DNA from: a virus
Lineage: Duplodnaviria; Caudoviricetes
Length of the DNA stretch: 64,000 nucleotides
Virus record (IMG/VR): IMGVR_UViG_3300035499_000517
Coordinates: 96,001 to 160,000 of that record
Reading direction: 5' to 3' (one strand)
The notes beneath the pieces are model-generated. The model saw only the letters and a list, made by a program, of their open reading frames with translations, did not search any database and had not been told where the DNA came from. The position numbers were made by a program, and so were the translations under genes. This document shows positions 34,615 through 35,024 of this stretch, piece after piece. Every line of letters begins with the position of its first letter. The first letter of the stretch is position 1.

Positions 34615-34938
34615 AAAAGAGGAATGGCAGCAAACCATTCCTCTTCATTTTCGTCTCGACAGACCGGATACACTCCTGCACGTCCCGGCTCGGTGTGCGC
34701 GCTTCATCACCAGCTAACGTGTCTAGCCGTCGAGATCTTCCATGACACGGCGACGCCCATGATCCCGGGTAAATCGCCGTCAACCGCCATTGCCAGACCT
34801 GCGGCGAACCGATTCGCGACAGTGGCTCTTTCATAATGACGGATTTTTATACATCGCCACCGGAGCCCTTCCGGCAGCACCTAGCGGGCGCGGCACTTCT
34901 GGCTGCCAATCCATGGCTGCACATAACCGTACTCGCTT
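34615..34938 (-). ncRNA. GC-rich structured ncRNA (~325 nt), family unknown
   Basis: GC island in AT-rich genome; multiple helices; late promoter AACT-ATATTG-TA (34938-34949); terminator AAGAGGAAUGG...CCAUUCCUCUUUU. Confidence 0.75.
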
Positions 34939-35024
34939 ACAATATAGTTCTATTTGTAATTTATAATTATTTTTAATTTTTATTATGGAAAACGGTCTTT
35001 TAAGGAAGAAAGCGAGGGATAGGA

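What the first reader, a model, noticed from the sequence alone, without database searches (positions are those of the whole stretch)
34615..34949. Large GC-rich structured ncRNA gene of unknown family with its own late promoter
Seen: a sharp GC island in AT-rich DNA between divergent genes. The minus strand has promoter AACT-N6-TA, then nested helices: GCCAU...GCCAGA with UCUGGC...AUGGC enclosing GCUGCCGGA/UCCGGUGGC and GCGAAUC/GGUUCGC; ACGGCGAU/GUCGCCGU; UCUCGACGG/CUGUCGAGA enclosing further stems. It ends in an intrinsic terminator. G.U pairs favour the minus strand. It lacks hallmark sequences of tRNA, tmRNA, RNase P, SRP or group I introns. Inference: a late ~325-nt RNA, possibly a ribozyme, scaffold, packaged RNA or anti-defence decoy.
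Basis: partly seen in the sequence, partly recalled or inferred. Interest (0 to 1): 0.8.

Follow-up and report, generated by a model that had tools for sequence, protein, structure and literature searches.

The report
Orphan non-coding RNA cassette, jumbo phage
A 320-base GC-rich, protein-less stretch of a gut jumbo phage has the promoter and terminator of an RNA gene and lies where sister phages keep tRNAs and unrelated RNAs, but its fold and function are unproven.

Summary
The GC island is real: 59% GC against 38%, the strongest in the 115-kb contig. It sits on the minus strand between a conserved AACT-N6-TAAG late-type promoter and an intrinsic terminator. It matches no Rfam family and has no conserved ORF, codon periodicity or protein homologue.

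Comparison with related pig-gut phages changes the picture. This site is a variable "stable-RNA slot". Phages with a 73-79% identical helicase carry tRNA-Ser, -Tyr or -His plus a 290-440-nt GC-rich RNA there, and one such RNA family shows covariation. More distant relatives have nothing there.

The RNA bodies fall into at least four mostly unrelated sequence groups. In the sister lineage (helicase 93% identical) the flanks are 80% identical, but the body is at shuffled level (61% against 60%). Covariance models of the window's RNA find nothing in relatives. Only one 35-nt hairpin module is shared with another group.

Without its terminator the window's RNA folds no better than shuffled sequence (z -0.6). 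All five recovered copies are identical, so covariation cannot be tested.

Verdict: probably a late accessory non-coding RNA cassette.

The parts
34936..34949 (-). Late-type promoter AACT-N6-TAAG of the RNA (AACTATATTGTAAG). The start is probably at the A of TA, about 34938, by analogy with the AR9 AACA(N6)TW late promoter (recalled knowledge).
   Evidence: The identical 14-mer precedes tRNA-Ser in L018 and L024, and the same motif precedes tRNAs, the slot RNAs and the late 147-aa gene in 8 lineages. The motif alone is not enriched in the window (11 found, 15.6 expected).
34648..34938 (-). Non-coding GC-rich body (about 59% GC; G 33%, C 23%), predicted as five separate stem-loop domains.
   Evidence: No conserved ORF, period-3 signal or homologue. 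No Rfam family.
34883..34937 (-). Domain 1, a 55-nt 5' hairpin. Its apex (34889-34924) is the only module shared with another lineage: hairpin with loop AUGGAU plus a CAGAAGUGC flank.
   Evidence: MFE domains. Local alignment to L018, 29 of 35 identical, z 6.2 against shuffles. The same hairpin is visible in L021.
34855..34879 (-). Domain 2, hairpin GCUGCCGGA/UCCGGUGGC with two G-U pairs.
   Evidence: Pair probabilities 0.91-0.97.
34784..34842 (-). Domain 3, an extended hairpin containing GCGAA-UCGG-UUCGC. It follows the A/U-rich linker GAUGUAUAAAAAU (34843-34854).
34747..34780 (-). Domain 4, hairpin ACGGCGAU/GUCGCCGU with CCCGGG in the apical part.
   Evidence: Pair probabilities 0.92-1.0.
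34645..34745 (-). Domain 5, a 100-nt branched domain closed by UCUCGACGG/CUGUCGAGA. It contains GGUGAUGAAGCGCGC.
34613..34647 (-). Intrinsic terminator: an 11-bp stem with a 7-nt loop, then UUUU.
   Evidence: pair probability 1.0. Relatives carry stronger terminators (U6-7) on the same strand at the same place.
34578..34591 (-). Separate late promoter AACAGTAGCTTAAG of the 147-aa gene and the baseplate/tail operon, between the RNA's terminator and the Shine-Dalgarno sequence.
   Evidence: AAAAACA..TTAA columns are invariant in all 8 lineages (listed).
34958..34970 (+). AATTTATAATTAT, which resembles the annotated AR9 early promoter AAATTTATATTAT. It is the likely promoter of the helicase gene, back to back with the RNA promoter, so the two transcripts do not overlap.
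   Evidence: This rests on resemblance to one annotated AR9 promoter only.

Best explanation
The island is an independent late transcription unit for a non-coding RNA of about 320 nt, with promoter at 34949-34936, body, and terminator at 34647-34613 on the minus strand. It occupies a variable 'stable-RNA slot' between the helicase's early promoter and the late baseplate/tail operon. In sister phages the same slot, under the same promoter type, holds tRNA genes plus other GC-rich non-coding RNAs. Bodies are exchanged between lineages while the promoter and downstream flank are kept, probably by recombination in the conserved flanks and with some module shuffling. The window carries an orphan body. 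Shown: the anatomy, the absence of coding signal, the body's lack of similarity to the sister lineage's between conserved flanks, and that at least one related slot RNA is a covarying structured RNA. Inferred: that the RNA is made late and is stable. Also inferred: that it acts in trans through its fold, as a decoy or sponge for a host or rival-element protein (about 0.3 of the total), rather than by base pairing or in cis. This last inference rests on the RNA being dispensable, lineage-specific and rapidly replaced, which is typical of host-interaction cargo.
For: Anatomy and composition.

Promoter: the identical 14-mer stands before tRNA-Ser in L018 and L024, and the AACN-N6-TAAK motif stands 0-10 nt before tRNAs and slot RNAs and about 20 nt before the late gene's start codon in all 8 lineages.

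Non-coding: no tblastx similarity among bodies, no Pfam or convincing PHROG match, no homologues of the 76- and 73-aa ORFs, no period-3 GC signal.

Slot content in relatives: tRNA-Ser/Tyr/His followed by 290-440-nt GC-rich RNAs that end in strong terminators. The C/E/H family has 17 pairs changed on both sides, with 91.5% of cells paired against about 40% when partners are slid. Five of the other lineages fold at z -2.7 to -5.0.

Body unrelated between conserved flanks: against sister lineage B the helicase CDS is 87% identical, both flanks are 80%, and the body is 61% against 60% for shuffles.

Accessory: the slot is empty in relatives with 52-69% identical helicases.

Mosaic: a 35-nt hairpin is shared with lineage F at z 6.2.
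Against: All five recovered copies are identical, so there is no covariation. The body folds no better than shuffles (z -0.56), and the opposite strand scores at least as well. No homologue was found in phage records, IMG/VR, GTDB genomes, relatives' loci or two complete related genomes. The promoter motif alone is not enriched in the window. No antisense target was found in the 115 kb held. No partner or phenotype is known, so the decoy reading is inference only.
Confidence: 0.5

Rival explanations
1. It is functionless filler. The DNA is recently acquired foreign GC-rich sequence, or a scar left when the tRNA genes were lost. It happens to lie between a leftover tRNA-operon promoter and a terminator, and any transcript has no role.
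For: The body is an orphan with no homologue anywhere. Its folding energy equals that of shuffles, as does that of sister body B. This phage and B are the two lineages without tRNAs in the slot. The slot is dispensable in more distant relatives.
Against: It is the GC-richest 200 nt of a 38% GC contig, and neutral DNA in such a genome should drift towards A+T. The promoter, the terminator and the flank are all intact and conserved. Each of the eight lineages that have the slot filled keeps a GC-rich body of similar size. One hairpin module is kept across lineages.
Confidence: 0.22
2. It is a cis-acting leader of the late baseplate/tail operon. On this view the RNA is a sensor that decides between termination and read-through at 34647-34613.
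For: The RNA lies directly upstream of the operon, on the same strand, and ends in a terminator 50 nt before the start codon. Sister body B contains the 13-mer GGGUGGUACCGCG, which matches the T-box consensus as I recall it.
Against: A separate, invariant late promoter lies between the terminator and the gene in all lineages. Relatives with an empty slot express the same operon without any leader. Unrelated bodies would have to perform the same regulation. No riboswitch, T-box or leader family is found, even at E<=10.
Confidence: 0.07
3. It encodes one or more small proteins, namely the 73-aa minus-strand or 76-aa plus-strand ORF.
For: Open frames of 57-77 codons exist on both strands. A gene caller called a 98-aa ORF in sister body B. 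The 76-aa ORF has a weak PHROG match at E 0.0034.
Against: There is no Shine-Dalgarno sequence at a usable distance, and the 76-aa ORF starts inside the terminator stem. There is no period-3 signal, no similarity among bodies by tblastx, no Pfam match and no homologue among 5.8 billion proteins. A search of 1.8 billion representatives gave only two short patchy matches in long proteins. Long ORFs are expected in 59% GC sequence.
Confidence: 0.04
4. It acts as DNA rather than RNA, for example as a replication or packaging signal, a protein-binding platform, or an insulator between the divergent early and late promoters.
For: It lies between back-to-back promoters. Its composition differs sharply from the surroundings.
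Against: The sequence is unrelated between sister phages and absent in others, which does not fit an essential cis site. No repeats or iterons were seen when reading the sequence. In relatives the same position is occupied by tRNA genes and a covarying RNA.
Confidence: 0.04

Closest known systems
ROOL and GOLLD RNAs (Rfam RF03087, RF01998)
   Same: Both are large non-coding RNAs of phages and prophages. They are GC-rich relative to their genomes, typically sit next to tRNA genes, and have no known function (context as described in PMC9241854 and PMC5737381).
   Different: There is no match to either model, even at E<=10. This RNA is about 320 nt rather than roughly 580 to 800 nt (sizes recalled). 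It has no covariation or folding-energy support. It is not a widespread family but an orphan, and this phage has no tRNA beside it (only its relatives do).
Staphylococcus phage K lnc001 and lnc002 (PMC9241854)
   Same: These are abundant non-coding transcripts from intergenic regions beside the tRNA genes of a large virulent phage. One has its own promoter and one is co-transcribed with a tRNA. The same two arrangements are seen here, in lineages D/F/G/window/B and in C/E/H respectively.
   Different: There is no sequence similarity to any GenBank phage record. The phage K RNAs are 0.6-1.2 kb, and their expression is shown, whereas here it is not.
Phage T4 stable RNAs 'species 1 and 2' (RNA C and D) of the tRNA operon (recalled knowledge, not checked here)
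   Same: They are non-tRNA stable RNAs encoded within a phage tRNA cluster and made from the same transcription units, with function still unknown.
   Different: They are shorter (about 120-140 nt). No relation was tested or is expected. T4 is not known to exchange unrelated bodies at that site.
PeSL cassettes of T4-type phages (promoter-early plus stem-loop frames that mediate modular shuffling; recalled knowledge, Arbiol et al. 2010)
   Same: A conserved promoter and a stem-loop frame a variable cargo that differs between close relatives. This suggests recombination in the frame.
   Different: The cargo there is small protein genes under early promoters. Here it is non-coding GC-rich RNA under a late-type promoter.
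Slot RNAs of sister phages found here (family C/E/H: L002, L017, L019, L020, L024; family D/F/G: L009, L018, L021)
   Same: They share position, strand, promoter type, terminator, size and raised GC. One 35-nt hairpin module is shared with F and G.
   Different: Apart from that hairpin there is no detectable sequence or structure homology. Those RNAs have folding z-scores of -1.6 to -5.0, and family C/E/H shows covariation. The window's RNA has neither.

Membership tests
ROOL (RF03087) / GOLLD (RF01998) | Match to the family covariance model (conserved multi-pseudoknot architecture) | tested here: not met
   cmscan of the window at gathering score and of 34400-35150 at E<=10 gave no hit. The relatives' loci also gave none.
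ROOL / GOLLD (context) | Phage-borne and adjacent to tRNA genes | tested here: inconclusive
   It is phage-borne. There is no tRNA in the window or in the 115-kb contig, but tRNA-Ser/Tyr/His occupy the same slot in six sister lineages.
Bacterial RNase P RNA | Conserved regions CR-I to CR-V with a P4 pseudoknot; match to the Rfam models | tested here: not met
   No Rfam hit at E<=10. A CR-I-like string in sister body B proved to be one side of an ordinary local hairpin.
tRNA / tmRNA / tRNA-like frame | Cloverleaf, or acceptor plus T-arm | tested here: not met
   ARAGORN found none. The Rfam tRNA and tmRNA models gave no hit at E<=10, while the same tools find the tRNAs in relatives.
Group I intron | Match to RF00028; location inside a gene with joinable exons | tested here: not met
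   RF00028 finds an intron at 23669-24023 in the same window, which serves as a positive control, but nothing here. The element is intergenic and has its own promoter and terminator.
T-box leader / cobalamin riboswitch | Family covariance model; antiterminator-terminator switch; regulated gene without its own promoter | tested here: not met
   No hit at E<=10 in the window or in sister body B. A conserved late promoter separates the terminator from the gene. The partial strings (GCCACUG here, GGGUGGUACCGCG in B) lack the surrounding helices.
CsrB/Rsm-type protein sponge RNAs | Many GGA motifs in loops, more than composition predicts | tested here: not met
   GGAU and GGAUG are modestly enriched over all eight bodies (z about 3.5), but the window's RNA has only 2 and 0. 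No Rfam CsrB or Rsm hit.
Structured RNA in general | Compensatory substitutions in the helices, or folding energy beyond composition | tested here: inconclusive
   The five copies are identical. The body gives z -0.56. Many genuine structured RNAs also fail the energy test, so this neither proves nor excludes a fold.
Expressed RNA gene | A discrete transcript with defined ends | not testable with these tools
Only the promoter and terminator predictions are available.

The most novel reading that the evidence does not exclude
AR9-like gut jumbo phages keep a dedicated expression slot (late promoter, body, terminator) beside their tRNA genes. Unrelated, mosaic, highly GC-rich non-coding RNAs are swapped into it like cassettes. 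On this reading they are the RNA counterpart of protein 'morons', each body being a lineage-specific decoy against a host defence or a rival mobile element. The window's orphan RNA would be one such weapon.
Probability: 0.2. Interest if true: 0.8.

Novelty: new variant of a known kind. Interest (0 to 1): 0.4.

Why it matters
Large non-coding RNAs beside phage tRNA genes (ROOL, GOLLD, the phage K lncRNAs) are known, but their role is not. This locus adds a different angle. Within one clade of uncultured pig-gut jumbo phages, the same promoter-terminator frame carries at least four mostly unrelated RNA bodies. Two phages whose helicases are 93% identical have bodies with no similarity at all.

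If the bodies are functional, RNA cargo is exchanged as quickly as anti-defence protein genes, and the slot would be a place to look for RNA-based counter-defence. If they are not functional, the locus warns that a GC-rich island with a promoter and a terminator, and helices visible by eye, need not be a structured RNA. For the window's own RNA the second lesson already applies: its helices are no better than chance for its composition.

Tried and rejected
RNase P RNA. Sister bodies showed CR-I- and CR-V-like strings by eye. I rejected this because no Rfam hit appeared and the strings sit in ordinary local hairpins.

T-box. Sister body B has GGGUGGUACCGCG, but no model hit and no antiterminator helix.

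Cobalamin riboswitch. The window has the GGUG...AAUCC...GCCACUG order, but the spacing is wrong and there is no hit.

CsrB-like GGA sponge: not enriched in the window's RNA.

tRNA-like frame, a lead from earlier notes: none found.

Small proteins, or a captured fragment of a coding gene: no period-3 signal and no homologues.

Antisense regulator: only chance-level 11-16-nt matches in the 115 kb held. The helicase appears to have its own promoter between the two genes.

Capture from a bacterium: two exact-pattern scans of 185,579 species' genomes gave nothing and one chance hit in Glycomyces, where 31 nt match with no stem complementarity.

One family for all slot RNAs: motif sharing across the eight lineages is at shuffle level. 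The C/E/H sequence profile hits only C, E and H. Covariance models of the window's two halves hit only generic hairpins and found no second copy in the own contig or in two complete related genomes.

Link to the VIPR arrays 5 kb away: the VIPR paper mentions no accessory structured RNA.

Palindromic kissing loops: the four 6-nt palindromes in the window's RNA equal the chance expectation (my count).

Relatives cannot be drawn for a virus record. The search for related loci with single proteins found nothing.

Full report
**What is in the sequence**

The window comes from a 114,823-bp IMG/VR contig, about 47% of a genome, with 38% GC. Earlier notes of this scan call the phage AR9-like. The helicase's database relatives include AR9/PBS1-type jumbo phages among others, such as Sinorhizobium and Rhizobium phages.

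Positions 34,600-34,900 reach 0.59-0.60 GC, the highest 200-nt value in the contig. The island lies between two divergent genes:
- a Dda-like helicase at 35025-36218 on the plus strand;
- a 147-aa gene at 34563-34120 on the minus strand, which heads a baseplate/tail operon (the next gene has a weak gp53 match).

On the minus strand, AACTATATTGTAAG lies at 34949-34936. About 290 nt of GC-rich sequence follow. An 11-bp hairpin at 34645-34617 with UUUU ends the unit. Then comes a second motif, AACAGTAGCTTAAG, at 34591-34578, just before the Shine-Dalgarno sequence of the 147-aa gene.

On the plus strand, AATTTATAATTAT at 34958-34970 resembles the annotated AR9 early promoter AAATTTATATTAT. The helicase therefore probably has its own promoter between the two genes, and its mRNA need not overlap the RNA.

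**Known families and coding capacity**

Rfam 15 finds a group I intron elsewhere in the window, which serves as a positive control, but nothing in the island at gathering score or at E<=10. ARAGORN finds no tRNA or tmRNA in the window or the contig.

The coding tests were all negative:
- The 57-77-codon open frames have no Pfam match and only one marginal PHROG match.
- The 76-aa ORF has no homologue among 5.8 billion proteins.
- The 73-aa ORF gives only two patchy short matches among 1.8 billion representatives.
- The body has no period-3 GC signal.

**The fold**

His two enclosing long-range helices (GCCAU/AUGGC and GCCAGA/UCUGGC) have probability near zero and cost about 10 kcal/mol when forced. 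The minimum-energy fold is a chain of five independent stem-loop domains plus the terminator.

With flanks and terminator the z-score is -2.15, but the opposite strand gives -3.12. Without the terminator the body gives -0.56. The helices are therefore what a 59% GC sequence yields by chance. This does not exclude a functional fold, but it removes the fold as evidence.

**Relatives**

I found relatives through the 147-aa protein and the helicase in Logan, ENA, JGI and IMG/VR assemblies, where sample names are given mostly from pig gut.

Five contigs carry the window's own type, and they are identical over the whole intergenic region. No covariation test is possible.

Seven further lineages (B to H; helicases 73-93% identical) have the slot filled:
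- Lineages C to H carry tRNA-Ser(GCU), tRNA-Tyr(GUA) and sometimes tRNA-His. Lineage D also carries an odd tRNA with a four-base anticodon. In all of them a 290-440-nt GC-enriched non-coding stretch follows, ending in a strong terminator.
- Lineage B, like the window, has no tRNA.
- Relatives with 52-69% identical helicases have only 46-144 nt between the two genes.

The slot is therefore accessory.

**The promoter**

The AACN-N6-TAAK motif stands immediately before tRNA-Ser and tRNA-Tyr, before the slot RNAs of lineages window, B, D, F and G, and about 20 nt before the start codon of the late gene in every lineage. The window's 14-mer is identical to the one before tRNA-Ser in L018 and L024.

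The motif matches the AACA(N6)TW late promoter of AR9, which I cite from memory. On its own it is too short to be enriched in the window. Its position is what counts. This placement, with the terminators, fixes the strand.

**The bodies are not one family**

- Against sister lineage B, the first 300 nt of the helicase gene are 87% identical and both intergenic flanks are 80% identical. The body is 61% identical, against 60% for shuffled sequence.
- Across eight lineages, shared motifs barely exceed shuffles.
- Pairwise local alignments are significant only for C-E, C-G, F-G and window-F.
- A profile of C/E/H hits only C, E and H.
- Covariance models built from the two halves of the window's RNA, using its MFE structure, find only generic hairpins in 15 related loci and nothing at all in B.
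- The same models find nothing in two complete related genomes and no second copy in the own contig.
- blastn against GenBank phages is empty for four body types.
- An IMG/VR pattern scan is empty, and two scans of GTDB genomes gave nothing and one chance hit.

The single link is a 35-nt hairpin with loop AUGGAU and a conserved 3' flank. It is shared by the window (34889-34924), F and G, with 29 of 35 positions identical to F. That suggests mosaic exchange of modules.

**Are slot RNAs real RNAs?**

For family C/E/H the answer is yes, as far as sequence can show. The RNAalifold consensus has 51 pairs, 17 of them with changes on both sides. 91.5% of cells are paired, against about 40% when partners are slid by 1-3 columns. 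The caveat is that the structure was derived from the same six sequences.

Within lineage E the substitutions keep G-U, G-C and A-U pairs on this strand. Lineages C, D, F, G and H fold at z -2.7 to -5.0, whereas the window and B do not.

In D, F and G the loop of the second hairpin (..UCCnnn..) pairs with a distal GGA-containing stretch. The pairing covaries across the three lineages: UCCCUC/GAGGGA, GUCCAAG/CUUGGAC and UCCAACC/GGUUGGA. I read this directly from the sequences.

**Interpretation**

The best reading is a late, independently transcribed accessory RNA cassette in a slot that otherwise belongs to the phage's stable-RNA (tRNA) operon. I put about 0.5 on its being a functional RNA gene.

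Within that, I favour a trans-acting folded decoy or sponge. The locus is dispensable, lineage-specific and rapidly replaced, and I found no base-pairing target. This is inference only.

The rivals are:
- functionless filler between a leftover promoter and a terminator (0.22);
- a cis leader (0.07), argued against by the invariant promoter downstream and by relatives that lack any leader;
- small proteins (0.04);
- a DNA-level site (0.04).

**Comparison with the known**

By context the closest are ROOL and GOLLD, the phage K lncRNAs beside tRNA genes (PMC9241854), and the T4 stable RNAs. The RNA is a member of none of these by any test I could run. The frame-plus-variable-cargo logic resembles the PeSL cassettes of T4-type phages (recalled), but with RNA cargo.

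Earlier notes of this scan report other undescribed GC-rich RNAs beside phage tRNA clusters, and a second late small RNA in this same genome. None overlaps this sequence.

**Limits**

Only half of the genome is held. The host is unknown.

Noticed in passing
L008:2244-2320, L009:1490-1566, L011:91-167: Lineage D carries, upstream of tRNA-Ser(GCU), a tRNA that ARAGORN reads with a four-base anticodon 'tgct' (an eight-membered anticodon loop). This could be a quadruplet-decoding or frameshift-suppressor tRNA.
   Followed up: no
L017 about 2265-2275 versus L019 (alignment columns 145-150 of A5): In family E the hexamer CUGCAG becomes CCGCGG, two substitutions that keep a perfect palindrome in an apparently unpaired stretch. 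One reading is an intermolecular kissing contact.
   Followed up: partly
L014 about 1935-1950: Sister body B contains GGGUGGUACCGCG, identical to the core of the T-box consensus as I recall it, but it has no T-box model hit and no antiterminator helix.
   Followed up: yes
window 38450-38790 and 11940-12260; contig C1:97930-98540 (outside the window): These are the next most GC-rich stretches of the contig (0.51-0.56 over 200 nt). I did not examine whether they are coding, introns or further RNA genes.
   Followed up: no
window 23669-24023 (-): A group I intron (RF00028, 59.5 bits), already treated by other notes of this scan. It served here as a positive control for the Rfam search.
   Followed up: no
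L018:2006-2110, L021:2071-2130, L009:1818-1875: The slot RNAs of lineages D, F and G start with two conserved hairpins. The second hairpin's loop (..AAnUCCnnn..) has a fully covarying distal partner 150-250 nt downstream, which indicates a long-range or pseudoknot pairing in that family.
   Followed up: partly
window 34958-34970 (+): AATTTATAATTAT resembles the annotated AR9 early promoter and lies back to back with the RNA's late-type promoter, only 9 nt apart.
   Followed up: partly
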